Part shown: positions 1 through 63,784 of the stretch, in pieces
How the letters are laid out: each line of letters starts with the position of its first letter
How positions within the stretch are numbered: position 1 is the stretch's first letter
Assembly (NCBI GenBank): GCA_965203555.1
Contig: CBDBCY010000004.1
Span: 136,961 to 200,960, forward strand
From: Acidimicrobiia bacterium
GTDB lineage: Bacteria; Actinomycetota; Acidimicrobiia; Spongiisociales; ZC4RG35
Length of the DNA: 64,000 nt
Direction: 5' to 3'
Made by a program: the position numbers and the translations under genes
The notes under the pieces: generated by a model
Seen by the model: the letters and a program-made list of their open reading frames with translations, nothing else
Told to the model about the DNA's origin: nothing
The model's database searches: none

Positions 1-415
1 GATCAAACAGAGGAAATGACCGAACCCGCGTCCTGTCTCCATGGTTCCTGCCAGCCCGTTTTTGCCACTCTTGATCCACGCCCATCCCCAATAGGGGTTT
101 CTGGAAGCACTCTGAACACCAGACTCAACACCCCCTCGCTATCTGCCCGCCGGATCAAACGCGCATAAACAGCGCGCCACCGCCCGGACGGCAACCTCCG
201 CAACCTACCGCCATACTCCCGCCACCTGCCAAACAGCGTTCAACACCTTTACAGATTCGACAGGCCTGCCCATGCACCCTGAGACCGCAAAAGAGCAAAC
301 CGCTACCCTAATCGAACTCCCCGAAAGCAGGGCTGGTCGATCACCGGGGCGCCGATCACTCCTGGTAGGTAAACTAACTGCCTGACCATTTCCTCTCACC
401 CAGGTTGCGCACAGC

Positions 416-12388: not shown

Positions 12389-12624
12389 ACTGCTCGTTCG
12401 GGCAGATACGAACCCCCGCTGGCGGCGAGTGTTCGTGCCGCGGAGGGTTCTGTGCCTCTGTTATCTCGGGGTGAAAGCAGGGAAGTATGTCGAGATTTGG
12501 GGAGGGGCTACCTGTGGTTTAGTGCAAGGCGTGGGCCGATGACCCCAATGGTGGGGGTCCTCCACAATTCGGGTGCGTGAGATCGGAGGCCAGGAGCGAG
12601 TATGTGCAGGGAGAGCAAGGCATC

Positions 12625-13035
12625 CGGACACCGATGGGTTCCCCCTCTTTCCGGCTATCGCTTATCGAGATACTCCAAGACCTGTCGGAAACCCCGGTCG
12701 AGTTTCTCGTCCGTGGCCTGACGATTCACGTCTATTTTGACGTTGAGCAGGTGAATGTCGTGTTTCACCTCGGCGAAATCGTGTTTCACTTCGGCGATAT
12801 CCTGTTTCACCTCCGCGATGTCGCGTTTCACCTCGGAGATGTCGTTCCCGATGCGTCTCTGCAGGCTGTTGAGGGCATCGGCGGTCATCGAAGCGACGTC
12901 CTTGGCGTCATGCTTCCCGAGTATATCCGGGATCGGCTGTCAATGCCACAGACGCGTCCGCTGCTTGCCTGTGATCTCATCCGGTCCGTCCACCGCGTTC
13001 CAGGATCATCTTCTCTTTGTTCAGCGTCCTTGCTC
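12625..13035. repeat. Copy 1 of a roughly 410-bp direct repeat (the unit carries a small ORF on the minus strand plus conserved flanks). It contains one extra 27-nt unit relative to copy 2.
   Basis: Near-identical to 13101-13490, with scattered substitutions and a 27-nt indel inside the ORF. The copies are separated by a unique spacer of about 65 bp. Confidence 0.85.
12655..12888 (-). CDS. Small coiled-coil protein of unknown function, with 9-aa tandem repeats (DIAEVKxDx)
   Basis: 77-aa ORF MTADALNSLQRRIGNDISEVKRDIAEVKQDIAEVKHDFAEVKHDIHLLNVKID.... ATG preceded by an AAGGA-like RBS. Charged heptad-like repeats. The paralog 476 bp away mostly differs by third-position changes plus a whole-repeat indel, which suggests selection on the protein. 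Confidence 0.5.
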   Translation of the reverse strand: MTADALNSLQRRIGNDISEVKRDIAEVKQDIAEVKHDFAEVKHDIHLLNVKIDVNRQATDEKLDRGFRQVLEYLDKR

Positions 13036-13100
13036 TGGTAGCGGCCCTCTGTCGGGAGATCGGGAGAGTCGTTTCAATGTAGCAGGGATAGCATGGCAGT

Positions 13101-13490
13101 CGGACACCGATGGGTTCCCCCTCTTTCCGGCTATCGCTTATCGAGATACTCCAAGACCTGTTGGAAACCCCGGTCGAGTTTCTCGTCCGTGGCCTGACGA
13201 TTCACGTCTATTTTGACGTTGACCAGGTGAATGTCGTGTTTCACTTCGGCGATGTCCTGTTTCACCTCCGCGATGTCGCGTTTCACCTCGGAGATGTCGT
13301 TCCCGATGCGTCTCTCCAGGCTGTTGAGGGCATCGGCAGTCATCGAAGCGATGTCCTTGGCGTCCATGCTTCCCGAGTATATCCGGGATCAGCTATCAAG
13401 GCCACAGACGCGTCCGCTGCTTGCCTGTGATCTCATCCGGTCCGTCCACCGCGTTCCAGGATCATCCTCTCTTTGTTCAGCGTCCTTCTT
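13101..13490. repeat. Copy 2 of the direct repeat
   Basis: Aligns to 12625-13035 with period 476 bp. Confidence 0.85.
13131..13367 (-). CDS. Paralog of the small coiled-coil repeat protein (one fewer 9-aa repeat). The alternative start at the second Met gives 13131..13343.
   Basis: 78-aa ORF MDAKDIASMTADALNSLERRIGNDISEVKRDIAEVKQDIAEVKHDIHLVNVKID.... The upstream ATG is frame-shifted out in copy 1, so the conserved start is probably MTADALN. Confidence 0.5.
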   Translation of the reverse strand: MDAKDIASMTADALNSLERRIGNDISEVKRDIAEVKQDIAEVKHDIHLVNVKIDVNRQATDEKLDRGFQQVLEYLDKR

Positions 13491-13595
13491 TTGGCAACGG
13501 CTCTCAATAACACAGAAACCAATGGCGCAGACCAAGGCCGTTCGTTTACTGAAGTAGAGCATTTTGCTGTTGTCTGATATCCTTATTGGTGCATT

Positions 13596-23155: not shown

Positions 23156-23199
23156 GAGGCATTGCTGTGGCTGCTGACCGAGGGCATCGTCTCCTGCGC

Positions 23200-25284
23200 A
23201 TGCGTCAGGTGCCCCTGAGTCGCACCCGCAATATCGGAATCATGGCCCACATCGATGCAGGAAAGACCACTCTGACCGAGCGGATTCTTTACTACACCGG
23301 TCGCAACTACAAAATCGGGGAGGTCCACGAGGGCGCCGCCACCATGGATTGGATGGCACAGGAGCAGGAGCGGGGAATCACCATCACCTCTGCCGCCACC
23401 ACCTGTATCTGGCACGATCACAGCATCAACATCATCGACACTCCGGGTCATGTCGATTTCACCGTCGAGGTGGAACGTAGTCTTCGAGTCCTGGATGGGG
23501 CGGTGGCGGTATTCGACGGGGTGGCGGGAGTGGAACCACAGTCGGAGACGGTGTGGCGGCAGGCCGACCGCTACGAAGTTCCCCGCATCTGCTTCATCAA
23601 CAAACTCGACCGACTGGGGGCGGACTTCTTCGCCGATGTGGAATCGATCCGCACCCGACTCAACGCAACACCTCTGGTGGTCCAACTGCCCGTGGGTGAG
23701 GAGAGTGATTTCCGAGGTGTTCTGGACCTGGTGGAAATGCAGATTCACGAGTGGCGGGGGGACGACGGCAGGCACTGGGACACCGGCGACATCCCCGAAT
23801 CGATGCAGGACCTGGCTTATGAATACCGGGCGCGGATGTTGGAGCAGGTAGCCGAGGTTGACGAGAAACTCCTGATCAAGTTCCTCGAAGATCTGTACAT
23901 AACCCCCGACGAGATCCGAACCGCTATCCGTACGGGGGTGCTTCAGCACATGTTCGTGCCGGTGCTTTGTGGTGCGGCCTTCAAGAACAAGGGAGTGCAG
24001 CCGCTGCTTGACGCCATTGTCCACTATCTGCCCAGCCCCTTGGACCTTCCTCCGGTGAAGGGTTTCGCCCCCAAGAATCCGGAACAGGTTCTGGAACGGA
24101 AGGCCAATGACGACGAGCCATTTTCGGCTCTCGCCTTCAAGATCATGAGCGATCCCCACGTCGGCAAGCTCACCTATTTCCGGGTCTATTCGGGCTCGGT
24201 CTCCAAGGGCGGCGCGGTGTTCAATACCACCAACGGCAAGAAGGAGCGCCTGGGACGGCTGCTTCGCATGCATGCCAACCATCGTGAGGATGTCAACATT
24301 GTTTACACCGGTGACATCGTGGCGGCGGTGGGATTGCGACACACCACCACCGGCGACACCCTTTCCGGTGTCGGTCACCCCATCAGCCTGGAATCGATGG
24401 CCTTTCCCGCGCCGGTTATCTGGGTAGCCATCGAGCCTCGCACCAGGGTTGACCAGGACAAGTTGTCCGAGTCCCTGCAAAAGCTGTCGGAGGAGGACCC
24501 GACCTTTCTGGTGAGAAGTGACGAAGAGACCGGGCAAACCATCATCTCGGGAATGGGCGAGCTCCACCTGGAGGTATTGGTGGACCGGCTGATCCGGGAA
24601 TTCAAGGTCGCGGCCAACATCGGTAAGCCGCAGGTCGCCTATCGAGAATCAATCCTGTCGGCCGTAGAGAAAGTGGAAGGCCGTTACGTCCGCCAGAGTG
24701 GCGGCCGGGGTCAGTACGGTCATGTCGTCATCGACATCGAACCCACCGGTCCCGGAGGAGGTTACGAATTCGTCAACAAGATCAGGGGCGGTCGCGTCCC
24801 CCGTGAATACATTCCGGCGGTGGCCGCCGGCATCGGAGAGGCTCTCGATGGGGGTATCCTGGCGGGCTACCCGGTGGTGGATGTGCGGGTCACCCTGGTT
24901 GACGGTTCACATCATGAAGTAGATTCTTCCGAACTGGCCTTTCGGATAGCCGGTTCCATGGCTGTTCGCGCCGCCACCAACAAGGCGGGGCTGAAACTGC
25001 TGGAGCCGGTGATGGAAGTCGAGGTGGTCACTCCCGACGAGTACATGGGAGACGTGATCGCCGACATTTCCGCTCGCCGGGGCCGTATTGGAGAAACCGA
25101 TCAGCGGGGATCGGCCCGGCTAATCACCGCCGCCGTACCGCTGGCCGCAATGTTCGGCTTTGCTACTGATATCCGGTCCAGGACTCAGGGGCGAGCAACG
25201 TATTCGATGCAATTCAAGGCTTACCAAGATGTTCCTGACTCTATTTGTCAGGACATCCTTCATTTGAGAACTGGTAAGTATTAG
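23200..25284 (+). CDS. fusA: Elongation factor G
   Basis: [31 protein letters not shown] domains II-V. ATG at 23200 (alternative GTG at 23167). The last roughly 45 codons are noticeably lower-GC. Confidence 0.95.
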
Positions 25285-26508
25285 AAATGGGGGTGTTTGG
25301 TTGTGGGTAAGGTGAGGTTTGAGCGGGTGAAGCCGCATTTGAATGTGGGTACTATGGGTCATATTGATCATGGGAAGACTACGTTGACTGCTGCGATTAC
25401 TAGGGTGTTGTCTGAGCGGGTTGGTGGGGTGAATGTGGTGACTGGGTTTGATGATATTGATCGTGCTCCTGAGGAGCGTGAGCGGGGTATTACGATTCAG
25501 ATTGCGCATGTTGAGTATGAGACTGTTTTGCGTCATTATGCGCATGTGGATATGCCGGGGCATGCGGATTATATTAAGAATATGATTACGGGGGCGGCTC
25601 AGGTGGATGGGGCGGTGTTGGTGGTGTCGGCGGTTGATGGTCCGATGCCGCAGACTCGTGAGCATGTGTTGTTGGCGCGGCAGGTGGGTGTGCCGCGGAT
25701 TGTGGTGTTTTTGAATAAGTGTGATTTGGTGGATGATGGTGAGTTGTTGGATTTGGTGGAGTTGGAGGTTCGGGATTTGTTGACGGAGTATGAGTTTCCG
25801 GGTGATGATGTTCCGGTGGTGAGGGGTTCGGCGTTGTTGGCGTTGGAGGGTGATGTGGTGGCTGGTGATGGGGTTATGGAGTTGATGGATGCGGTTGATG
25901 GGTATGTTGATGTGCCGGTTCGGGATGTGGATCGTCCGTTTTTGATGCCGATTGAGGATGTGTTTTCGATTACTGGTCGGGGTACGGTGGTGACTGGTCG
26001 GGTTGAGCAGGGTGTGTTGCGGGTTGGTGAGGCGGTTGAGGTGGTTGGTTTGCGTGATACGCGTGGGTCGGTGGCTACTGGTGTGGAGATGTTTAGGAAG
26101 TTGTTGGATGAGGGTCGGGCTGGTGATAATGTGGGGGTGTTGTTGCGGGGGGTGGGGAAGTCGGAGGTGGAGCGTGGTCAGGTGTTGGCTGCTCCTGGGT
26201 CGATTTTGCCGCATGTGGGTTTTGAGGCGCAGGTGTATGTGTTGACGAAGGAGGAGGGGGGGAGGCATAATCCGTTTTTTTCGGGTTATCGTCCGCAGTT
26301 TTATTTTCGGACTACGGATGTGACGGGTTCGGTGTTGTTGCCTGTTGGGGTGCAGATGGTGATGCCGGGTGATAATGTGGAGTTGTCGGTGGAGTTGATT
26401 GCTCCGATTGCGATGTCGGTGGGGTTGGATTTCGCGATTCGTGAGGGTGGTCGGACTGTGGGGGCGGGTCGGGTCACCAAGATCACCAAATAACCCCAAA
26501 CCCAAGAA
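25283..26508 (+). repeat. 1.2-kb direct repeat (copy 1) containing tuf. Essentially identical to 61421-62648.
   Basis: Identical from agaaatggggg... through ...aaataacccc, with only a C-run length difference after the stop. Confidence 0.9.
25303..26493 (+). CDS. tuf: Elongation factor Tu (copy 1, in the str operon) with extremely atypical composition: A/C-depleted codons that nearly all end in G or T
   Basis: [43 protein letters not shown], a complete EF-Tu. GTG at 25303 (TTG at 25297 is in-frame upstream). Confidence 0.9.
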
Positions 26509-26583: not shown

Positions 26584-26895
26584 ATGAACGGTTCCCATAA
26601 GATCCGCATAAAGCTCAAGGCTTATGACCATCAGAGTGTGGATGAGTCAGCGCGCAAGATCGCTGCTACGGTTACTCGTACCCAGGCCAAAATAAGAGGT
26701 CCTGTTCCGTTGCCTACCGAGATCCACAGATACTGCGTTATACGCGGACCCCATGTCGATAAAGACTCCCGGGAACACTTCGAGATGCGCATTCATAAGC
26801 GGTTGATCGATATCTTGGATCCAACCGCTAAAACGGTTGATTCATTGATGCGCCTTGATCTTCCTTCCGGAGTGGAAGTAGAGATAAAGCTGTGA
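26584..26895 (+). CDS. rpsJ: 30S ribosomal protein S10 (low-GC codon usage; uses ATA/AGA/AAA codons)
   Basis: [21 protein letters not shown]...[17 protein letters not shown]. Confidence 0.95.
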
Positions 26896-45930: not shown

Positions 45931-45984
45931 GAAAGGAGGAATTTCCCACCCCACAACTCGGCGTGCAGCGGAGTTATCTCACAA

Positions 45985-46150
45985 CAAACAAGCGCCAGGC
46001 CTCTTGAACCGCCGGTCGGCGGATTCCGGAGGTGACGAGGAGGAAGGCGATCGAATCTTTCGGCGGATGCCTTTCCGGCCACCACAGTCGTGACGATCGG
46101 AGCAAATCCCGCCGGTAACGGCGGGGACAAAAGACGGTCGAAGTGGAGCG
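45985..46150 (+). ncRNA. glmS_ribozyme: glmS ribozyme (GlcN6P-responsive self-cleaving riboswitch) in the 5' leader of glmS
   Basis: Contains AGCGCCAGG... (P1/cleavage-site region) and the core block GACGAGGAGGAAGGCGATCGAATCTTTCGGCGGATGCCTTTCCGGCC. The latter is nearly identical to the conserved P2/P2.1 core of Bacillus-type glmS ribozymes (GACGAGGAUGGAGGUUAUCGAAUUUUCGGCGGAUGCCUCCCGGCUG). Sits about 50 nt upstream of the glmS ATG. Confidence 0.8.
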
Positions 46151-46196
46151 TTCCGCAATGCGCGCGCAGAGGGGGTTTGTGGAAATTGGCGCGATC

Positions 46197-48032
46197 ATGT
46201 GCGGAATAGTTGGTTATGTTGGCTCCCGCCCTGCTCGAGATTTGTTGCTGGGTGGTTTGGCCCGGTTGGAGTACCGGGGCTACGACTCGGCGGGAATGGC
46301 TATCGGTCAGAACGGCGCATTGACAAGTGTCCGACAGGTTGGAAAGATCTCCGATCTGGCCGCGGTGGTCCAGGAAGGTTCGGAGTCTTTCCCCGGGGGG
46401 TATGGAGTCGGGCATACCCGATGGGCGACTCACGGGGCGCCCACCACTCCCAATGCTCACCCTCACTTCGATTGCTCGGGGGAGGTGGCGATCGTCCACA
46501 ACGGGATTATTGAGAATTGGACGGAGTTGAAGGCTTGGTTGGAAGGCCGGGGGCACGGATTTGCCTCCGACACCGACACGGAGGTGGCCGCCCATCTCAT
46601 CGAGGAACTGTCTTCGCTCCCCCTGTCAGAGGCAGTGGCGCAGGTCCTGCGACGCTGTGAGGGCGCCCTGGCCCTGGCGGTGATTCGCCGCTCCGATCCA
46701 GGGCTGGTTGTGGGAGGTCGGAAGGGAAGCCCGCTGGTGATCGGCCGGGGATCGGGGGAGAATTTCCTGGCTTCCGACATCCCTGCGTTCATGGCCCATA
46801 CCCGTCGCATGATGGTGGTTCCCGAAGATCGGGTGGTGGAGATCCGCTCGGACTCGGTGCGCATCACCGACCTACGCGGACAGGAGCAGGAACCAGAGGA
46901 ACGGGAGGTGGAATGGGACGTGGAGGCCGCCGAGAAGGGCGGCTATCCCACTTTCATGCTCAAGGAGATATACGAGCAGCCCAAAGCCGTGGCGGAGACC
47001 CTGTTGGGACGCATCAGTTCCACCGGTCTGCCCATGCTGGAGGAAACGGGAGTGACCGCCGAGATTGCCAAGGACGTGGACAAGGTGTTCGTGGTGGCCT
47101 GCGGTACCTCCTATCACGCCGGGATGATGGCCAAATACGCATTGGAGCGATGGGCGAAGCTTCCGGTGGAGGTAGATCTGTCCTCGGAGTTCCGGTATCG
47201 AGATCCGGTTCTCAACTCCCGCTCGCTGGTGATCGGCATCAGCCAGTCGGGAGAGACTGCGGACACTTTGGGCGCGATCCGATATGCGCTCGGACAGGGC
47301 GCCCGGGTGGCGGCGGTGACCAACGTGGTCGGATCGTCGCTGGCCCGAGAGGCGCACATGGTGCTGCAAACCAGGGCGGGCCCCGAAATCGGAGTGGCGG
47401 CTTCCAAGACCTTCATCACCCAGATGGCCCTGCTTCAACTATTGGGTCTGCATATGGCCATCGAGCGAGGCGTGATGAGTCCCGCAGAAGCGGCAGGGCC
47501 GGTGAATGCGCTGCGCAGCCTGCCTGATCGGCTCGATGAAGTGTTGGGCCTTTCCGATCAGATGCTGGAGTTGGCGCAGGAGTGGCGGGACGTGCGAGAT
47601 TTCTTCTTCCTGGGCAGGTCTGTCGACTATCCGGCGGCTCTGGAAGGCGCCTTGAAGCTGAAGGAATTGTCCTATGTGCGAGCCGAGGGTTATGCGGCCG
47701 GTGAGATGAAGCACGGTCCCATCGCCCTGATCGAGCCGGGAGTGGTGGTGATCGGAGTGGCCACCGACCGCCGGCTGCGTCCCAAGATGTTCTCCAATCT
47801 CTCGGAGATGAAGGCGCGGGGCGGTACGGTGGTGACCCTGGTCGGAGAGGAGGACCGGGCCGAGGCGGCAATCACCTCCGATCTGGTGATAACCCTTCCC
47901 GAAGACGCTGATCTGATCGGAGCGGTGCTGGCAGTGGTTCCGCTGCAACTCTTCTCCTACCACCTTGCCACCCTCAAGGGACTGGACGTCGACCAACCCC
48001 GCAACCTTGCCAAGACGGTGACCGTGGAGTAG
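46197..48032 (+). CDS. glmS: Glutamine--fructose-6-phosphate aminotransferase
   Basis: MCGIVGY (Cys2 nucleophile) and two SIS domains. ATG at 46197 (the track ORF extends upstream across the ribozyme). Confidence 0.95.
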   Translation: MCGIVGYVGSRPARDLLLGGLARLEYRGYDSAGMAIGQNGALTSVRQVGKISDLAAVVQEGSESFPGGYGVGHTRWATHGAPTTPNAHPHFDCSGEVAIVHNGIIENWTELKAWLEGRGHGFASDTDTEVAAHLIEELSSLPLSEAVAQVLRRCEGALALAVIRRSDPGLVVGGRKGSPLVIGRGSGENFLASDIPAFMAHTRRMMVVPEDRVVEIRSDSVRITDLRGQEQEPEEREVEWDVEAAEKGGYPTFMLKEIYEQPKAVAETLLGRISSTGLPMLEETGVTAEIAKDVDKVFVVACGTSYHAGMMAKYALERWAKLPVEVDLSSEFRYRDPVLNSRSLVIGISQSGETADTLGAIRYALGQGARVAAVTNVVGSSLAREAHMVLQTRAGPEIGVAASKTFITQMALLQLLGLHMAIERGVMSPAEAAGPVNALRSLPDRLDEVLGLSDQMLELAQEWRDVRDFFFLGRSVDYPAALEGALKLKELSYVRAEGYAAGEMKHGPIALIEPGVVVIGVATDRRLRPKMFSNLSEMKARGGTVVTLVGEEDRAEAAITSDLVITLPEDADLIGAVLAVVPLQLFSYHLATLKGLDVDQPRNLAKTVTVE

Positions 48033-58345: not shown

Positions 58346-58443
58346 TTCTGGGAGTTGGAGGGGAAACTCCACCGGTGGCCGATCAACTTACCGCAGCATT
58401 AAGATATGCAGACCAAGACTATTTCTGGTTGGAGGATACGTCT

Positions 58444-59085
58444 ATGAGTCACCGTTTAGTGGTGACCCTGTTGGCATTGGGCCTTTGGGGATGTCAGAAT
58501 CCAGATACCGATGCAATGTCGGCATCATACAATTATCAGCCAGCTGTGAGAATCCAAGATACCGAGATTCTTATAGAGGACCAAGATACTGGCCCGGTTA
58601 TAGAGAGGTTACATGCAGATGGGTTTGACGGGAGCACTAGTGACGGAATAACGCTTAGACCAAATAACAATAGGTATTACTTCATGACCTTTGTCTGCCG
58701 AAGAACAAAGGAAGGTACGCCGGAGTTTGGTTTAAGCTTTGAAGTGGGCCGGTCTTTTGAGTCTGATGAAGTGCAGGTAACAATCAGAATTGGTAATAAT
58801 CAGCCTGTTACTGAAACATGGCAAATCAGAGGTGAGTCTAACTGGTGGGCGAGTCCACCAAGAGATGCTGACGTTGTCAGGTGGGTAGGAAGAATTATCA
58901 AGGCAAATAATCGGAAGATCGAAGTGTGGATCAAGGAAGCCGGTGACACCGCCGATCTGAAAACGTATACATTTCGCTTCGAGAATCGTGGTCCGGAGTT
59001 CGAGGAAGTAGGCCGATTCATCAAATCGGAACATGGCTGCGGCCATCCGATACTGGTTCGGCAGATCAATGAAAGTCCTGAATAG
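58444..59085 (+). CDS. Predicted lipoprotein of unknown function (low-GC island)
   Basis: ATG at 58444 gives MSHRLVVTLLALGLWGC with a lipobox (LWGC). The mature part has no recognisable motif. GC is far below neighbours. The track ORF extends to GTG 58375. Confidence 0.6.
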   Translation: MSHRLVVTLLALGLWGCQNPDTDAMSASYNYQPAVRIQDTEILIEDQDTGPVIERLHADGFDGSTSDGITLRPNNNRYYFMTFVCRRTKEGTPEFGLSFEVGRSFESDEVQVTIRIGNNQPVTETWQIRGESNWWASPPRDADVVRWVGRIIKANNRKIEVWIKEAGDTADLKTYTFRFENRGPEFEEVGRFIKSEHGCGHPILVRQINESPE

Positions 59086-60158: not shown

Positions 60159-61016
60159 ATGAACAACGTAAAGACCGTGGTGTTGCTGACGCTGCTCACG
60201 CTGCTCTTCTGGTGGCTGGGTGTCACCCTCTTTCCCAACGGAGGGTTCTGGATAGGACTGGCCTTGGCGGCGCTCATCAACCTGGGCGCCTATTTCTTCT
60301 CCTCCAAACTCGCCCTGATGGCGAGCCGCGCCCGCCCGGTGTCCGAGGAGGAACTTCCCCAGGTCTACGGCACGGTGCGCATGCTGACCGACTATTCCAA
60401 CATGCCGATGCCCCGCATCTACCTGATCGACTCTCCCCAGCCCAACGCCTTCGCCACCGGGCGCAGTCCCAAGCACGGGGTGGTGGCGGTCACCACCGGG
60501 CTGCTGCGGATCATGGATCGGCGTGAATTGGAAGGGGTGCTGGCGCATGAGCTTTCCCATATCCGCAACCGGGACATCCTGATCTCCTCGGTGGCGGCGA
60601 TGCTGGCGTCCGCCCTGGTCATGATGTCCCGGATGGCCTTCTGGTTCGGCGGAGGGCGCGACCGGAACAACCAGGTGGGAGCGATCATCGCCTTGGTGGC
60701 GATGATCCTGGCGCCCATTGCGGCCATCCTGATCAGAATGGCCATCTCCCGCTCCCGGGAGTACCAGGCGGACCGGACCGGCGCCGAGATCACCGGGCAG
60801 CCGCTGGCGCTGGCGTCGGCCCTGAGCAAGATCGGAATCGCCGCGGAGCGCATCCCCATGCGGGTCAACGACGCGTTCAGCCAGCTCTACATCGAAAATC
60901 CCCTCAAAAGCAACTTCCGTCGGGGAGGAGGGGGTGTCATGAAGCTCATCTCCACCCATCCGCCTATCGAGGACCGGATCCGGCGCCTCGAAAAGATGGC
61001 CGACCCCTTCTCCTGA
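60159..61016 (+). CDS. htpX: Zinc metalloprotease HtpX
   Basis: HELSHIRNRD (HExxH), 4 TM segments, about 285 aa. Confidence 0.9.
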   Translation: MNNVKTVVLLTLLTLLFWWLGVTLFPNGGFWIGLALAALINLGAYFFSSKLALMASRARPVSEEELPQVYGTVRMLTDYSNMPMPRIYLIDSPQPNAFATGRSPKHGVVAVTTGLLRIMDRRELEGVLAHELSHIRNRDILISSVAAMLASALVMMSRMAFWFGGGRDRNNQVGAIIALVAMILAPIAAILIRMAISRSREYQADRTGAEITGQPLALASALSKIGIAAERIPMRVNDAFSQLYIENPLKSNFRRGGGGVMKLISTHPPIEDRIRRLEKMADPFS

Positions 61017-61103: not shown

Positions 61104-61187
61104 GCCGGGATACCCAAGCGGCCAAAGGGAGCAGACTGTAAATCTGCCGGCGATGCCTTCGGAGGTTCAAATCCTTCTCCCGGCACC
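61104..61187 (+). tRNA. tRNA-Tyr (anticodon GTA), long variable arm
   Basis: Acceptor gccggga/tcccggc; anticodon loop CTGTAAA; T-loop GGTTCAAATCC. Confidence 0.85.
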
Positions 61188-61209
61188 GGCTTTCCCGCAA
61201 AGACCAAGC

Positions 61210-61283
61210 GCCCCCTTAGCTCAGACGGCCAGAGCGCCTCCATGGTAAGGAGGAGGTCTCCGGTTCGAATCCGGAAGGGGGCT
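61210..61283 (+). tRNA. tRNA-Thr (anticodon GGT)
   Basis: Acceptor gccccct/agggggc; D-arm GCTCAGACGGCCAGAGC; anticodon loop ATGGTAA; T-loop GGTTCGAATCC. Confidence 0.85.
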
Positions 61284-61315
61284 CCCCCGTGCGGCCCGCG
61301 CCGACTACGGGTAAA

Positions 61316-61389
61316 GGCGGCGTAGCTCAGTTGGTAAGAGCGCTCGACTCATAATCGAGAGGTCGGCAGTTCAAGTCTGCCCGCCGCTA
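61316..61389 (+). tRNA. tRNA-Met, elongator type (anticodon CAT)
   Basis: Acceptor ggcggcg/cgccgct; D-arm GCTCAGTTGGTAAGAGC; anticodon loop CTCATAA; T-loop AGTTCAAGTCT. No initiator features. Confidence 0.85.
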
Positions 61390-61420
61390 CATGGAACCAA
61401 AGACAGCTATCGATAAATAC

Positions 61421-62648
61421 AGAAATGGGGGTGTTTGGTTGTGGGTAAGGTGAGGTTTGAGCGGGTGAAGCCGCATTTGAATGTGGGTACTATGGGTCAT
61501 ATTGATCATGGGAAGACTACGTTGACTGCTGCGATTACTAGGGTGTTGTCTGAGCGGGTTGGTGGGGTGAATGTGGTGACTGGGTTTGATGATATTGATC
61601 GTGCTCCTGAGGAGCGTGAGCGGGGTATTACGATTCAGATTGCGCATGTTGAGTATGAGACTGTTTTGCGTCATTATGCGCATGTGGATATGCCGGGGCA
61701 TGCGGATTATATTAAGAATATGATTACGGGGGCGGCTCAGGTGGATGGGGCGGTGTTGGTGGTGTCGGCGGTTGATGGTCCGATGCCGCAGACTCGTGAG
61801 CATGTGTTGTTGGCGCGGCAGGTGGGTGTGCCGCGGATTGTGGTGTTTTTGAATAAGTGTGATTTGGTGGATGATGGTGAGTTGTTGGATTTGGTGGAGT
61901 TGGAGGTTCGGGATTTGTTGACGGAGTATGAGTTTCCGGGTGATGATGTTCCGGTGGTGAGGGGTTCGGCGTTGTTGGCGTTGGAGGGTGATGTGGTGGC
62001 TGGTGATGGGGTTATGGAGTTGATGGATGCGGTTGATGGGTATGTTGATGTGCCGGTTCGGGATGTGGATCGTCCGTTTTTGATGCCGATTGAGGATGTG
62101 TTTTCGATTACTGGTCGGGGTACGGTGGTGACTGGTCGGGTTGAGCAGGGTGTGTTGCGGGTTGGTGAGGCGGTTGAGGTGGTTGGTTTGCGTGATACGC
62201 GTGGGTCGGTGGCTACTGGTGTGGAGATGTTTAGGAAGTTGTTGGATGAGGGTCGGGCTGGTGATAATGTGGGGGTGTTGTTGCGGGGGGTGGGGAAGTC
62301 GGAGGTGGAGCGTGGTCAGGTGTTGGCTGCTCCTGGGTCGATTTTGCCGCATGTGGGTTTTGAGGCGCAGGTGTATGTGTTGACGAAGGAGGAGGGGGGG
62401 AGGCATAATCCGTTTTTTTCGGGTTATCGTCCGCAGTTTTATTTTCGGACTACGGATGTGACGGGTTCGGTGTTGTTGCCTGTTGGGGTGCAGATGGTGA
62501 TGCCGGGTGATAATGTGGAGTTGTCGGTGGAGTTGATTGCTCCGATTGCGATGTCGGTGGGGTTGGATTTCGCGATTCGTGAGGGTGGTCGGACTGTGGG
62601 GGCGGGTCGGGTCACCAAGATCACCAAATAACCCCCCAAACCCAAAGA
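61421..62648 (+). repeat. 1.2-kb direct repeat (copy 2) containing the second tuf
   Basis: Identical to 25283-26508 except for the C-run length just past the stop. Confidence 0.9.
61441..62631 (+). CDS. tuf: Elongation factor Tu (copy 2, tufB-like position after the tRNA cluster). Protein identical to copy 1, with the same A/C-depleted G/T-ending codons.
   Basis: Nucleotide-identical to 25303-26493. Confidence 0.9.
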
Positions 62649-62696
62649 CTGACGCCAATAGCGCAAGAAGCCAGGACGTAAGAAAGAAAGCAACCG

Positions 62697-62888
62697 ATGC
62701 CAAGTGACAAGAGACCCCCGGTGAAACTTGCCTGCACCGAGTGCAAGCGGCGCAACTACGTGACCACCCGCGGCAGGGCGAACCAGCACGACAAGGCGCA
62801 GCGCCGCAACCTCGTGCGAGGCCGGTTGGTGCTTCGCAAGTACTGTCGGTGGTGCCGCATTCACACTTCCCACCGGGAAACGCGATAG
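62697..62888 (+). CDS. rpmG: 50S ribosomal protein L33
   Basis: [54 protein letters not shown] (C4 zinc ribbon). Confidence 0.92.
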
Positions 62889-62929
62889 GCCAGGCCAAGG
62901 CGTCTGCTTCCAAGGGGGTGGCCGGCCAG

Positions 62930-63784
62930 ATGACTCTCGCCGATCTGGAGGGCATGGTTTTCGGGCCCGAGCCCCTGCGGGTTTCCAGGGACCGCGTCGC
63001 CGCCTACGTGGAGGTAACCGGCGACCAACCCGATCGATGGGGCGATGTCGCTCCGCCCGGCATGGCCGGCGCCGCGTTGTTTGCGGTAGCTCCCACGTTG
63101 CTTTCTCATCCGGCGGTTATGGCCGAGGGCGGTGCGGCGATTCACGGGGAGCAGGTCTTCATATGGAAGGCCCCACTTCAGGCGGAGGCAACCTGGTCGG
63201 TGGTAGGTGAGGTCAAGCGGGTGCGACATCGTCGGGGCGTCTGGTTTGTGGACTTTTCCGCAGCCGTCGCCGACTCCCATGGCGGGACAATGGTGGAGGG
63301 CAGGTCTTCTTTCCTGATCGCCGGAGGTAGCCCGCCGGCTCGGAGCGGGACGGTGGATACCGAACCGCCTCCCCATCACCGTGCCGACAACCGACCGGCG
63401 TCCGGCGCCGACCTTCCCGAGGTGGGCTGTGAGACTCCCACGCTCTCCAAATCGGCGAGTCGTGCGGATCTGATTCGCTACGCCGCGGTCACCAGGGATT
63501 GGAATCCGATCCACTGGGATCATCAGTCGGCGGTGGGAGCGGGGCTTCCGGGCGTGGTGGTGCACGGATTGGCCTGCGCAGCCTGGATGTGCCAGGGCGT
63601 CACCCGGTTGCTGGACGGAGAGGCGCCCATTGGTAGAGCCAAGTTCCGGTTTCGGCGGCCGCTACGCCCCGCGGTGTCCGCGCAGGTGGAGGGCAGGCGG
63701 ACCGGTGAAGACCGGTTCGCAATGCGTTTGGTCTCGGAAGGACACGTTCTCATCACAGCCACGATGGAGACGGCGCTCCATTAG
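62930..63784 (+). CDS. Fused double-hotdog MaoC-like (R)-specific dehydratase (HadA-like N-half + HadB-like C-half)
   Basis: ATG at 62930. The C-terminal half has the hydratase-2 motif RDWNPIHWD...GLPGVVVHG. The N-terminal half is a non-catalytic hotdog. Located right after rpmG, where mycobacteria carry hadA-hadB-hadC. Confidence 0.75.
   Translation: MTLADLEGMVFGPEPLRVSRDRVAAYVEVTGDQPDRWGDVAPPGMAGAALFAVAPTLLSHPAVMAEGGAAIHGEQVFIWKAPLQAEATWSVVGEVKRVRHRRGVWFVDFSAAVADSHGGTMVEGRSSFLIAGGSPPARSGTVDTEPPPHHRADNRPASGADLPEVGCETPTLSKSASRADLIRYAAVTRDWNPIHWDHQSAVGAGLPGVVVHGLACAAWMCQGVTRLLDGEAPIGRAKFRFRRPLRPAVSAQVEGRRTGEDRFAMRLVSEGHVLITATMETALH

What the first reader, a model, noticed from the sequence alone, without database searches (positions are those of the whole stretch)
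61421..62648. Second, nucleotide-identical tuf copy in a tufB-like locus (tRNA-Tyr, tRNA-Thr, tRNA-Met, tuf, rpmG)
A 1.2-kb block (leader + tuf + about 15 nt of 3' flank) is repeated exactly, 36 kb apart and in direct orientation. Copy 1 is in the canonical str operon after fusA. Copy 2 follows a tRNA-Tyr/Thr/Met cluster and precedes rpmG and the hadAB-like gene. That is the ancestral tufB position seen in proteobacteria (thrU-tyrU-glyT-thrT-tufB-secE-nusG), whereas actinobacterial genomes with this rpmG-hadAB arrangement normally carry a single tuf. The repeat boundaries are sharp: identity starts 2 nt inside the fusA stop codon at copy 1 and immediately after an AT-rich spacer downstream of tRNA-Met at copy 2. 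The only difference is the length of a C-run after the stop. Perfect identity of such an odd sequence implies very recent duplication or ongoing gene conversion between the two loci. Two 1.2-kb identical direct repeats also create a substrate for a 36-kb deletion, duplication or inversion-free recombination of the ribosomal-protein region. The elongator tRNA-Met and the tRNA cluster suggest copy 2 landed next to a classic integration hotspot.
Basis: partly seen in the sequence, partly recalled or inferred. Interest (0 to 1): 0.72.

Follow-up and report, generated by a model that had tools for sequence, protein, structure and literature searches.

The report
Converted tuf twins with G/T-only codons
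Two copies of the gene for translation factor EF-Tu are kept identical by copying between them, which is ordinary, but in this lineage the copied block has lost nearly every C and A at the third codon position (98-99% G or T), a distortion confined to this one gene for which I found no published description.

Summary
The repeat is real: window 25283-26497 equals 61421-62635 (1215 nt, 100%, direct). Copy 1 follows fusA. Copy 2 follows tRNA-Tyr/Thr/Met and precedes rpmG. This is not a recent insertion or an assembly artefact. Five other long contigs carry the same two loci, with paralogs 99.4-100% identical in four and partly homogenised in the fifth. Orthologous tuf genes are about 94% identical and their flanks about 83%. 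That is classical tufA/tufB concerted evolution, already reported for Actinobacteria.

Of 397 codons in tuf, 390 end in G or T, and all 34 Leu are TTG. Every other ORF in the window has 36-65% G/T at that position. Across Acidimicrobiia there is a graded series (0.4 to 0.99), strongest 5' and weakest at the 3' end.

Four-fold sites lose C first, mostly to G. Close relatives differ almost only by G<->T. The window clade also shows 27 A/C-to-G/T changes against 2 reverse at codon positions 1 and 2. This indicates a fixation bias, not C>T mutation pressure.

My favoured, unproven mechanism (about 0.4) is strand-asymmetric biased gene conversion filtered by the actinobacterial mismatch nuclease NucS. 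The main rival is selection on the mRNA.

The parts
23167..25284 (+). fusA (EF-G), last gene before tuf copy 1. Ordinary codon composition (K3 0.51), except that its last ~20 codons are T-rich at position 3.
   Evidence: TIGR00484, 1063 bits
25283..26497 (+). Homology block, copy 1 (18-nt G/T-rich leader with GGGGG Shine-Dalgarno, tuf, 4 nt of trailer)
   Evidence: 1215 nt, 100% identical to 61421-62635
25303..26493 (+). tuf copy 1 CDS in the str operon. GTG start as in the called homologues; an in-frame TTG lies at 25297.
26584..26895 (+). rpsJ (S10), first gene after copy 1, ordinary composition
60159..61016 (+). htpX-like M48 zinc protease, conserved upstream neighbour of the tRNA-tuf locus in relatives
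61104..61390 (+). tRNA-Tyr(GTA), tRNA-Thr(GGT), tRNA-Met(CAT) cluster upstream of copy 2
61421..62635 (+). Homology block, copy 2
61441..62631 (+). tuf copy 2 CDS (396 aa). Of 397 codons including the stop, 390 end in G or T. Leu 34/34 TTG. Base counts over the 61435-62631 ORF: G 504, T 372, A 177, C 144.
62611..62696 (+). A/C-rich 3' tail. It holds the last 7 codons (GTC ACC AAG ATC ACC AAA TAA), which carry six of the seven non-G/T third positions, plus the C/A-rich, G-poor spacer to rpmG.
62697..62888 (+). rpmG (L33), ordinary composition
62930..63784 (+). MaoC-type dehydratase, HadA/HadB-like only weakly (63 bits, cut-off 350). The ATG start at 62930 is inferred.
61387..62955 (-). 522-aa stop-free antisense ORF. 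It is a mechanical by-product of G/T-only third positions (no TTA, CTA or TCA codons on the sense strand), not a gene.
   Evidence: frame arithmetic

Best explanation
K = G or T; M = A or C; K3 = fraction of codons ending in G or T.

Layer 1 (shown, about 0.95). These are the two ancestral tuf loci: a tufA type in the str operon and a tufB type after a tRNA cluster and before rpmG-secE-nusG. They are kept identical by recurrent gene conversion over a block running from about 18 nt upstream of the start codon to a few nt past the stop.

Layer 2 (partly shown). Inside that block, and nowhere else in about 1 Mb of related DNA examined, the sense strand has been driven towards G and T. The pattern shows a fixation bias against C and A, not a C>T mutation pressure.

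Layer 3 (inferred, about 0.4 for a conversion-linked drive, about 0.3 for the NucS version). The bias arises during conversion. The heteroduplex is preferentially 'resident sense strand + incoming donor antisense strand'. The sense strand is the lagging-strand template of a gene co-oriented with replication, and also the strand displaced in R-loops. The actinobacterial mismatch nuclease NucS recognises only G-T, G-G and T-T mismatches. Such a mismatch forms only when the resident sense base is G/T and the donor allele is A/C. So K-to-M conversions are rejected, while M-to-K, G<->T and A<->C conversions pass. New M-to-K mutations therefore spread to both copies and new K-to-M mutations are erased. 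This is a molecular drive that overrides codon preference and, in the window clade, weak protein constraint.

The confidence figure of 0.4 refers to layer 3.
For: Concerted evolution. The window pair is 100% identical. L164/L165 are 99.9%, L001/L002 99.4%, L170/L171 differ at 4 sites and L174/L175 at 7 sites. All occupy the same two contexts, 37-119 kb apart. Orthologous tuf genes are about 94% identical and flanks about 83%. Paralogs are sisters in the tree.

Restriction to tuf. K3 is 0.99 for tuf against 0.36-0.65 for every other ORF in the window. A keto-skew scan of 0.97 Mb of loci flags essentially only tuf.

Graded series. K3 runs from 0.38-0.49, through 0.64-0.94, to 0.98-0.99 in several Acidimicrobiia branches.

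Fixation bias rather than deamination.
- Four-fold sites lose C first, mostly to G. In L022, four-fold C is 0.15 and G 0.69, while two-fold pyrimidine-ending (C/T) sites are still 75% C.
- At conserved C sites, the window has G at 19 and T at 22.
- 50 of 52 third-position differences between the window and L004 are G<->T.

Across all positions. On the branch to the window clade, codon positions 1 and 2 show 27 M>K changes (A>G 17, C>T 4, A>T 4, C>G 2) against 2 K>M.

Link to conversion.
- The skew begins at the 5' edge of the homology block, while the sequences just outside it on both sides are A/C-rich.
- K3 falls towards the 3' end: sextile means are 0.87, 0.87, 0.85, 0.81, 0.80, 0.67, and the last 15 codons average 0.40.
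- All 13 paralog-difference sites in K-skewed genomes lie at nt 558 or beyond, of 1191 (p about 3e-4).

NucS premises from the literature.
- NucS prefers G-T, G-G and T-T, with weak or no activity on A-C (PMC8228993).
- NucS suppresses homeologous recombination (PMC5290159).
- NucS is present in Ilumatobacter coccineus but absent from Acidimicrobium ferrooxidans (PMC5290159 supplement). Ilumatobacteraceae MAGs have K3 of 0.77-0.82.
Against: (1) L172/L173, another Actinomycetota lineage, has both loci. Nt 110-836 are identical between the copies, so conversion is active there, yet K3 is a normal 0.50. Conversion alone is therefore not sufficient. The model survives only if that lineage lacks NucS or the strand asymmetry, which I could not test.

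(2) nucS was not found in any sequence held. Its presence in the window organism is untested.

(3) The 3' trailers that lie inside the homology block in L164/L165 and L001/L002 are A/C-rich, not G/T-rich. I have to invoke an edge effect or a functional constraint.

(4) The 5' edge shows no edge effect, and the polarity (strong 5', weak 3') is not derived from the model.

(5) The association of skew with a two-copy state rests on contig breaks and chimeric joins at tuf (L003, L084, L085, L091, L101, L110, L138, L147, L168/169, L176), not on closed genomes. For the 2.64-Mb contig carrying L166 (K3 0.77), no second copy at 93% protein identity or above was seen.

(6) The last ~20 fusA codons, outside the block, are also T-rich at position 3 in the window clade.

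(7) The acceleration of EF-Tu protein change is modest: the EF-Tu/EF-G divergence ratio is 0.61 against 0.55.
Confidence: 0.4

Rival explanations
1. Selection on the tuf mRNA. Cytosine, and to a lesser degree adenine, is selected against in the sense strand because it exposes the transcript to a C-dependent factor. One candidate is Rho, whose loading sites are C-rich and G-poor. Another is actinobacterial RNase E, which in mycobacteria cleaves 5' of C in an RN|CNU context (both facts from my own knowledge). A related possibility is that a G/U-rich message folds less stably. EF-Tu would be special because its own shortage slows ribosomes and uncovers mRNA. A Rho- and RNase-proof tuf message would then prevent a vicious circle.
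For: The bias is a fixation bias and acts first where C can be replaced at no cost by G. It is confined to the coding region in the intermediates, whose leaders are C/A-rich. The exemption of the last 15-60 codons fits Rho logic, since a loading site near the 3' end cannot terminate within the gene. YC dinucleotides are 5.2 per 100 nt in tuf against 12.5-19 in other genes. RNCNU motifs are 1.1 against 1.9-3.5. The trailer after tuf is C-rich and G-poor (C 0.32, G 0.18), like a Rho loading site. Predicted folding energy of 120-nt windows weakens from about -44 to about -31 kcal/mol along the series.
Against: It gives no reason why only tuf is affected. fusA in the same operon, groEL and some twenty ribosomal-protein genes are normal. 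It does not predict the loss of about 50 A at codon positions 1 and 2, or the 27:2 directional amino-acid-changing substitutions. The weaker folding is about what the lower G+C alone would give, and A-ending codons, which would reduce structure further, are never used. G/T-only wobble runs against the genome's own preference in highly expressed genes (groEL C3 0.50). It also creates many internal GTG/TTG codons and Shine-Dalgarno-like motifs (3.1 against 1.3-1.8 per 100 nt). It does not explain the parallel between the skew and the homogenisation gradient.
Confidence: 0.3
2. Transcription-associated mutation. The non-template strand of an extremely transcribed gene is exposed as single-stranded DNA, possibly in R-loops stabilised by the G-rich RNA. 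It accumulates deamination changes (C>T, A>G), giving G+T excess on the sense strand, as in the known transcription-coupled strand asymmetries. Conversion then spreads the result to both copies.
For: The end state (only G and T) is exactly the product of C and A deamination. A>G and C>T dominate the changes at positions 1 and 2 (21 of 27). There is a 5'-high gradient. Feedback through R-loop stability could in principle explain saturation.
Against: Four-fold sites lose C much faster than two-fold pyrimidine-ending sites, and mainly to G. Equal C>T pressure cannot produce that pattern. Co-transcribed neighbours are unaffected: fusA lies 18 nt upstream, rpsJ and rpmG 65-90 nt downstream, and no terminator-like site lies between. 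The transcribed spacers on both sides are A/C-rich. Other very highly expressed genes show nothing.
Confidence: 0.07
3. One reading: the second copy is an assembly duplication, or a very recent duplication or insertion next to a tRNA integration hotspot.
For: The two copies are perfectly identical, and copy 2 lies next to a tRNA cluster. The exact window protein is not on record in the public collection, so this assembly itself could not be cross-checked.
Against: The same two loci, with the same block boundaries, occur in five other long contigs from independent assemblies. These include a 3.18-Mb contig whose record name carries a '_c' suffix (possibly marking it circular; not checked) and contigs of 1.35, 1.11, 0.58 and 0.26 Mb. 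The tRNA-tuf-rpmG arrangement is widespread in the phylum. The arrangement is the known ancient tufB locus (PMC6053082). No integrase, direct-repeat scar or foreign composition flanks the block.
Confidence: 0.03

Closest known systems
tufA/tufB concerted evolution by gene conversion (Salmonella/E. coli model; Lathe and Bork 2001; Paulsson et al. 2017, PMC5485169; Wang and Chen 2018, PMC6053082)
   Same: There are two tuf genes in distinct conserved contexts: the str operon, and a tRNA cluster upstream of secE-nusG. The homology block is limited to the gene. Paralogs are more alike than orthologues. The state is ancient, with differential loss, and has been reported for Actinobacteria.
   Different: In Salmonella, conversion initiates uniformly and runs in both directions within the gene (PMC5485169). 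Here homogenisation is clearly strongest 5' and weakest 3'. No compositional consequence has been described for any tuf pair. Here the block is 73% G+T with 98-99% G/T-ending codons.
GC-biased gene conversion (mammals, yeast; proposed for bacteria, Lassalle et al. 2015, as cited in PMC13061034)
   Same: It is a fixation bias tied to recombination heteroduplex repair. It mimics selection, overrides codon preference and can fix slightly deleterious amino-acid changes.
   Different: gBGC is strand-symmetric and raises G+C. Here G+C falls (0.66 to 0.54), and the bias is between keto bases (G, T) and amino bases (A, C) on one strand. That needs both a strand-asymmetric heteroduplex and a repair enzyme that distinguishes G/T-containing mismatches from A/C-containing ones.
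NucS/EndoMS non-canonical mismatch repair of Actinobacteria (PMC5290159, PMC8228993, PMC11551744)
   Same: Its substrate range (G-T, G-G, T-T; not A-C, C-C, A-A) is exactly the partition needed to pass M-to-K and block K-to-M conversions. It acts on strands annealed to the lagging-strand template, in short patches. It also limits homeologous recombination.
   Different: No role in shaping the composition of paralogs has been shown. One preprint on M. tuberculosis only speculates that recombination-associated repair asymmetries could reshape paralogous regions, and it reports T>C enrichment (PMC13061034). NucS presence in this organism is untested.
Transcription- and replication-associated strand asymmetry (G+T excess on the non-transcribed or leading strand; own knowledge: Francino and Ochman 1996-97, Green et al. 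2003)
   Same: The direction of the skew is the same: G>C and T>A on the sense, leading strand.
   Different: Known skews are a few per cent to about 20% and affect whole transcription units or replichores. Here the keto skew is 0.55-0.6, the edges are sharp, neighbours in the same operon are untouched, and the substitution pattern (C to G first) is not a deamination pattern.

Membership tests
Elongation factor Tu (TIGR00485 equivalog) | Full-length match above the curated cut-off, with GTP_EFTU, D2 and D3 domains and G1-G5 motifs | tested here: met
   687.8 bits against a cut-off of 522.4, residues 1-395. [18 protein letters not shown] and SAL are visible in the translation. Close homologues carry PF00009, PF03144 and PF03143.
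tufA/tufB concerted-evolution pair | Two loci in different, conserved genomic contexts (str operon; tRNA cluster upstream of rpmG/secE/nusG) | tested here: met
tufA/tufB concerted-evolution pair | Paralogs within a genome are more similar than orthologues between genomes | tested here: met
   Within genomes 99.4-100%. Between genomes about 94% for tuf and about 83% for flanks. Paralogs are sisters in the NJ tree.
tufA/tufB concerted-evolution pair | Homology ends at or close to the gene borders | tested here: met
   The block runs from -14 to -20 nt upstream to between 0 and +38 nt downstream in four K-skewed genomes (window, L164/L165, L001/L002, L170/L171). In L174/L175 the identical runs are 15 nt upstream and 2 nt downstream, but the copies also differ within the stop codon.
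Translational (tRNA-adapted) codon bias of highly expressed genes | Same preferred codons as other highly expressed genes of the genome | tested here: not met
   groEL has C3 0.50 and T3 0.08. Ribosomal-protein genes have C3 0.35-0.41. tuf has C3 0.01 and T3 0.41. NNC and NNU share one tRNA, so tRNA supply cannot favour U (own knowledge).
Transcription-associated mutational strand asymmetry | Skew covers the transcription unit and scales with expression | tested here: not met
   fusA, rpsJ and rpmG in the same operons, and groEL, are unskewed. The transcribed spacers are A/C-rich.
Transcription-associated mutational strand asymmetry | Substitutions dominated by C>T and A>G at equal rates in all synonymous site classes | tested here: not met
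   Four-fold sites lose C to G well before two-fold sites change C to T.
GC-biased gene conversion | Recombination-linked increase of G+C, the same on both strands | tested here: not met
   tuf G+C falls from 0.66 to 0.54 along the series, and the bias is strand-specific.
NucS-filtered strand-asymmetric gene conversion (proposed here) | All four M>K classes favoured, G<->T and A<->C neutral, K>M suppressed | tested here: met
   M>K 27 (A>G, C>T, A>T, C>G all present) against K>M 2. C is replaced by both G and T. 50 of 52 third-position differences are G<->T.
NucS-filtered strand-asymmetric gene conversion (proposed here) | Skew confined to, and graded with, the converted segment | tested here: inconclusive
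   For: the sharp 5' edge at the block border, and the parallel 3' decline of K3 and of homogenisation. Against: A/C-rich trailers inside the block, and T-rich third positions in the last fusA codons outside it.
NucS-filtered strand-asymmetric gene conversion (proposed here) | Occurs wherever two copies convert in a NucS-bearing genome, and is absent otherwise | tested here: inconclusive
   L172/L173 convert but are unskewed, and their NucS status is unknown. Copy number in most skewed MAGs is inferred only from contig breaks and chimeras.
NucS-filtered strand-asymmetric gene conversion (proposed here) | nucS present and mutS/mutL absent in the genome | not testable with these tools
   No nucS in the window or in 177 loci. 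The collection scans and protein searches were exhausted. The literature shows a patchy distribution in Acidimicrobiia.

The most novel reading that the evidence does not exclude
A strand-asymmetric form of biased gene conversion exists in bacteria. Between two co-oriented paralogs, the actinobacterial mismatch nuclease NucS rejects only those conversion heteroduplexes that carry G/T-G/T mismatches. This creates a one-way ratchet from A/C to G/T on the sense strand. The ratchet has rewritten the most highly expressed, most conserved protein-coding gene of a whole clade to 98-99% G/T-ending codons, against translational selection. It has also pushed some 25-30 directional nucleotide changes into the amino-acid-determining positions of EF-Tu.
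Probability: 0.3. Interest if true: 0.85.

Novelty: new variant of a known kind. Interest (0 to 1): 0.7.

Why it matters
As a duplicated tuf pair, this is textbook and matters little. The composition of the pair is another matter. An essential gene under the strongest codon selection in the cell has been driven to an almost C- and A-free wobble position, repeatedly within one bacterial class, with a graded series of intermediates preserved in public metagenomes.

If the cause is a conversion-linked drive, it would be a clear natural demonstration of several things:
- Mismatch-repair specificity can dictate gene composition in bacteria.
- Non-adaptive drives can override codon optimisation and alter a core protein.
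- NucS acts on recombination intermediates in vivo.

If the cause is selection, it points to an unrecognised vulnerability of tuf mRNA (Rho, RNase E or similar) specific to these organisms.

There are also practical consequences. The 1.2-kb repeat breaks or mis-joins short-read assemblies, producing fusA-tuf-rpmG and htpX-tuf-rpsJ chimeras. The skew generates a spurious 522-codon antisense ORF. It also biases tuf-based phylogenies through convergent V/G/R enrichment.

Tried and rejected
1. Specific pairing of the A/C-rich 3' tail with the G/U-rich leader. I saw 13-14 possible base pairs by eye. RNAduplex shows the tail pairs about equally well with many places in the G/U-rich body, and the best site differs between copies and genomes. 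Dropped.

2. Selection for an unstructured mRNA. Folding weakens only from about -44 to about -31 kcal/mol per 120 nt, which is about what the lower G+C gives. Kept only as a minor part of the selection rival.

3. G-quadruplexes. There is no (G3+N1-7)x4 motif in tuf.

4. Promoter at the block border or terminator after tuf. There are no consensus hits flanking either copy. The hits inside tuf are by-products of its composition.

5. Known RNA elements. Rfam finds only three tRNAs and a glmS ribozyme in the window.

6. tRNA-based codon adaptation. Rejected because NNC and NNU share a tRNA, and other highly expressed genes prefer C.

7. A real antisense gene. Rejected because the ORF is codon-aligned with tuf and follows mechanically from G/T-only third positions.

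8. Looking for nucS in the window and loci using a NucS sequence recalled from memory. No hit. This says nothing about the rest of the genome.

9. Exact-sequence look-up of the window's own EF-Tu. Not on record.

10. Literature searches for a prior description (tuf + Acidimicrobiia + codon usage; EF-Tu + non-transcribed strand + deamination; biased gene conversion + NucS; G+T strand asymmetry). Nothing describing this was found.

11. The tandem duplication at 12.6-13.5 kb as a second test case for conversion-linked skew. It is not skewed (keto skew 0.08), but it lies on the other strand and differs by 3-8%. Uninformative.
Full report
Abbreviations: K = G or T; M = A or C; K3 = fraction of codons ending in G or T.

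OBSERVATION

The repeat is exactly as described. Window 25283-26497 and 61421-62635 are identical over 1215 nt, in direct orientation, 36,138 nt apart.

Copy 1 begins inside the fusA stop codon. Copy 2 begins 30 nt after tRNA-Met. Both end 4 nt after the tuf stop, followed by CCCC versus CCCCCC and a shared AAACCCAA.

ARAGORN and Rfam confirm tRNA-Tyr, tRNA-Thr and tRNA-Met at 61104-61390. NCBIfam confirms EF-G, EF-Tu (TIGR00485, 688 bits against a 522 cut-off), S10, L33, HtpX and a weakly HadAB-like MaoC dehydratase.

IS THE SECOND LOCUS UNUSUAL?

No. Five other long contigs carry both loci on one molecule, in the same two contexts.

| Contig | Loci | Separation | Paralog identity |
|---|---|---|---|
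| ERZ24894576 ctg49648l | L002/L001 | 119 kb | 6 mismatches |
| ERZ28763718 ctg79362 | L165/L164 | 37 kb | 99.9% over 1248 nt |
| ERZ25039549 contig_108592 | L170/L171 | 71 kb | 4 differences |
| ERZ28493000 ctg4075635_50x_c (3.18 Mb) | L175/L174 | 109 kb | 7 differences |
| JGI Ga0679480_0000002 | L173/L172 | 27 kb | see below |

The tRNA-(Tyr)-Thr-Met-tuf-rpmG arrangement is also seen on many single contigs of Acidimicrobiia and other Actinomycetota.

Between genomes tuf is about 94% identical and the flanks about 83%. Paralogs are sisters in a tree. This is concerted evolution by gene conversion, known for tuf since Lathe and Bork (2001). It has been reported for Actinobacteria among six phyla (PMC6053082) and dissected experimentally in Salmonella (PMC5485169).

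'Ongoing gene conversion' is supported. An assembly artefact is very unlikely, although reads for this sample could not be examined.

WHAT IS REALLY ODD

In the 61435-62631 ORF, G, T, A and C number 504, 372, 177 and 144.
- Third codon positions are G 230, T 162, C 5, A 2.
- All 34 Leu codons are TTG, and every two-fold pyrimidine-ending codon but two ends in T.
- Six of the seven exceptions are in the last seven codons.
- Every other ORF in the window has K3 between 0.36 and 0.65. That includes fusA, 18 nt upstream, as well as groEL and the ribosomal-protein operons.
- A 300-nt keto-skew scan of 0.97 Mb of fetched loci flags essentially only tuf genes.
- The 522-codon antisense ORF over tuf is a mechanical by-product.

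IT IS A LINEAGE-WIDE, GRADED PHENOMENON

Independent assemblies of relatives show the same thing: L001, L002, L004, L164 and L165 have K3 of 0.98-0.99. Genome and metagenome scans give a continuum:
- Ordinary high-G+C tuf, with C3 of 0.55-0.63 and K3 of 0.38-0.49. Examples are L029, L031, L044, L092 and L107, plus Streptomyces and Nocardia.
- K3 of 0.64-0.82, in Microthrixaceae, Ilumatobacteraceae, L166 and L174.
- K3 of 0.82-0.94, in L003, L005, L084-L086, L101, L147, L168 and L170.

In a rough NJ tree, skewed genes fall in one main clade plus several other branches. Literature searches found no description of this.

ANATOMY OF THE BIAS

1. Two stages.
- First, C3 collapses from about 230 to 20-50 codons, and Leu shifts from CTN to TTG. 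Positions 1 and 2 stay otherwise unchanged.
- Second, in the window clade only, positions 1 and 2 lose about 50 A and 15 C and gain G and T.
- Polarised against the sister group and outgroups, this is 27 M>K changes (A>G 17, C>T 4, A>T 4, C>G 2) against 2 K>M.
- The protein becomes richer in V, G and R. It is only modestly accelerated: the EF-Tu/EF-G divergence ratio is 0.61 against 0.55.

2. Four-fold sites lose C first, and mostly to G, while two-fold pyrimidine-ending sites lag.
- In L022, four-fold C is 0.15 and G 0.69, while two-fold sites are only 25% T.
- In L110 the corresponding figures are 0.09, 0.73 and 41%.
- At conserved C sites the window has G at 19 and T at 22.

3. Between the window and L004, 50 of 52 third-position differences are G<->T transversions.

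4. There is polarity.
- In the intermediates, K3 by sextile is 0.87, 0.87, 0.85, 0.81, 0.80, 0.67.
- The last 15 codons average 0.40.

5. The edges are sharp.
- The skew starts within a few nt of the 5' border of the homology block.
- The spacers just outside it, in both contexts, are A/C-rich, as are the trailers.

WHAT THIS EXCLUDES

Codon adaptation is excluded. Other highly expressed genes prefer C, and NNC and NNU share a tRNA.

Pure C>T/A>G mutation pressure, whether transcription-associated or otherwise, is very unlikely.
- It cannot make four-fold sites lose C faster than two-fold sites, or replace C by G.
- It should also affect co-transcribed neighbours and spacers. No terminator-like site separates tuf from rpsJ or rpmG.

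The data call for a fixation bias against C and A on the sense strand. At two-fold sites it is opposed by the genome's preference for C-ending, G+C-rich codons.

FAVOURED MECHANISM (INFERRED)

The only property that singles out tuf among the highly expressed genes here is that it is a converting duplicate, and the skew is co-extensive with the converted block.

Homogenisation itself is polar.
- All 13 paralog-difference sites in the three skewed genomes with non-identical copies lie at nt 558 or beyond, of 1191 (p about 3e-4).
- In L172/L173, nt 110-836 are identical while the last 350 nt differ by 12%.
- So K3 is highest where conversion is most effective.

A filter with the right specificity is known. 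NucS, the mismatch nuclease of Actinobacteria, acts on G-T, G-G and T-T, and hardly at all on A-C (PMC8228993). In M. smegmatis, oligonucleotides annealing to the lagging-strand template are incorporated when they create C-C, A-A, G-A or C-A mismatches, but are rejected for G-T or G-G, with a repair patch of about 5-6 bp (PMC11551744). NucS also suppresses homeologous recombination (PMC5290159).

Suppose conversion heteroduplexes are mostly resident sense strand plus donor antisense strand. The sense strand is the lagging-strand template of these co-oriented genes, and also the strand displaced in R-loops. Then a NucS-visible mismatch forms only when the resident allele is K and the donor allele is M. 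K-to-M conversions are blocked and all others pass.

This predicts, without further parameters:
- the direction of the skew;
- the loss of both C and A;
- replacement of C by both G and T;
- the neutrality of G<->T;
- action at non-synonymous sites;
- confinement to the block.

NucS is patchily distributed in Acidimicrobiia. It is present in Ilumatobacter coccineus and absent in Acidimicrobium ferrooxidans (PMC5290159 supplement). That could explain why only some branches are skewed. Ilumatobacteraceae MAGs have K3 of 0.77-0.82.

WEAKNESSES

- L172/L173 convert but are unskewed (K3 0.50), and their NucS status is unknown.
- Trailers inside the block are A/C-rich.
- The 5'-high polarity is not derived from the model.
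- The link between skew and two copies rests largely on contig breaks and chimeric joins at tuf in short-read assemblies (L003, L084, L085, L091, L101, L110, L138, L147, L168/L169, L176).
- For L166 (K3 0.77, on a 2.64-Mb contig) no second copy was seen at 93% protein identity or above.

I put a conversion-linked drive at about 0.4, and the NucS version at about 0.3.

MAIN RIVAL (ABOUT 0.3)

The rival is selection on the mRNA against C, through Rho loading or RNase E cleavage 5' of C.

In its favour:
- The bias is confined to the coding region in the intermediates.
- The 3' end is exempt.
- YC dinucleotides are three times fewer, at 5.2 against 12.5-19 per 100 nt.
- RNCNU motifs are roughly two to three times fewer, at 1.1 against 1.9-3.5 per 100 nt.
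- The trailer is C-rich and G-poor.

Against it:
- It does not explain why only tuf is affected.
- It does not explain why A is lost at amino-acid-determining positions.
- It does not explain why the skew tracks homogenisation.
- Weaker mRNA structure is only a side effect of the lower G+C.
- A specific leader-tail pairing was tested and rejected.

VERDICT

The finding as written is a correct observation of an ordinary, already known kind of feature: an anciently duplicated tuf pair under gene conversion.

Inside it sits an extreme, gene-specific, strand-specific compositional drive for which I found no published description. It has a preserved evolutionary series and a concrete, cheaply testable mechanistic hypothesis. 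That is what deserves follow-up.

Noticed in passing
window 45980-46150 (+), upstream of glmS at 46143-48032: A full-length glmS ribozyme/riboswitch (Rfam RF00234, 86.7 bits against a gathering score of 37) precedes glmS in this actinobacterial window.
   Followed up: no
window 12606-13049 and 13082-13505; internal 21-nt repeats at 12758-12845 and 13231-13300: A tandem duplication of a ~450-nt unit (92-97% identical) lies upstream of the pyruvate carboxylase-like ORF. Each unit contains 3-4 copies of a 21-nt (7-codon) repeat. It probably encodes two small repeat proteins on the minus strand. It has no G/T skew (0.08).
   Followed up: partly
window 61387-62955 (-), and the equivalent over copy 1: A 522-codon stop-free antisense ORF runs over tuf, caused purely by G/T-only third positions. 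Gene callers could mis-annotate it.
   Followed up: yes
L101, L138, L168 (fusA-tuf-rpmG); L176 (htpX-tuf-rpsJ); contigs ending at tuf borders: L003, L084, L085, L091, L110, L147, L169: Public short-read metagenome assemblies are broken or mis-joined at the 1.2-kb tuf repeat. This produces chimeric gene orders that would imply loss of the whole S10-spc-alpha region if taken at face value.
   Followed up: partly
window (str copy at 25 kb, tRNA-tuf copy at 61 kb); L002/L001, L165/L164, L170/L171, L175/L174 against L173/L172: In the skewed Acidimicrobiia, the str-operon copy lies upstream of the tRNA-tuf-rpmG copy, 36-119 kb apart. In the unskewed L172/L173 genome the order is the classical tufB ... 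str, 27 kb apart. I did not examine whether this order matters for the skew.
   Followed up: no
window 25220-25284 (last ~20 codons of fusA); likewise L004 and L002: The 3' end of fusA, just outside the homology block, is unusually T-rich at third positions in the window clade, but not in intermediates such as L003 and L005. It may serve to keep the tuf ribosome-binding site unstructured, or it may hold an internal promoter.
   Followed up: partly
window 58375-59085 (+): A 236-aa ORF lies between groEL and the Methyltransf_28-family gene (Pfam PF02636 in the L001/L164 relatives). It has atypical composition (third positions A 0.25, T 0.29, against about 0.1-0.15 elsewhere) and no NCBIfam match. 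It may be a lineage-specific or acquired gene.
   Followed up: no
window 1-400: This stretch has a strongly negative keto skew (-0.26 to -0.31; C 153, G 80) upstream of lepA. It is the only other compositional outlier in the window, opposite in sign to tuf.
   Followed up: no
codons 63, 79-80, 90-91 and 93 of tuf in L003, L005, L166-L170, L174: The same few C-ending codons persist in all intermediate-skew genes within an otherwise G/T-saturated 5' half, and are lost only in the window clade. They could mark locally constrained sites or simply shared ancestry.
   Followed up: no
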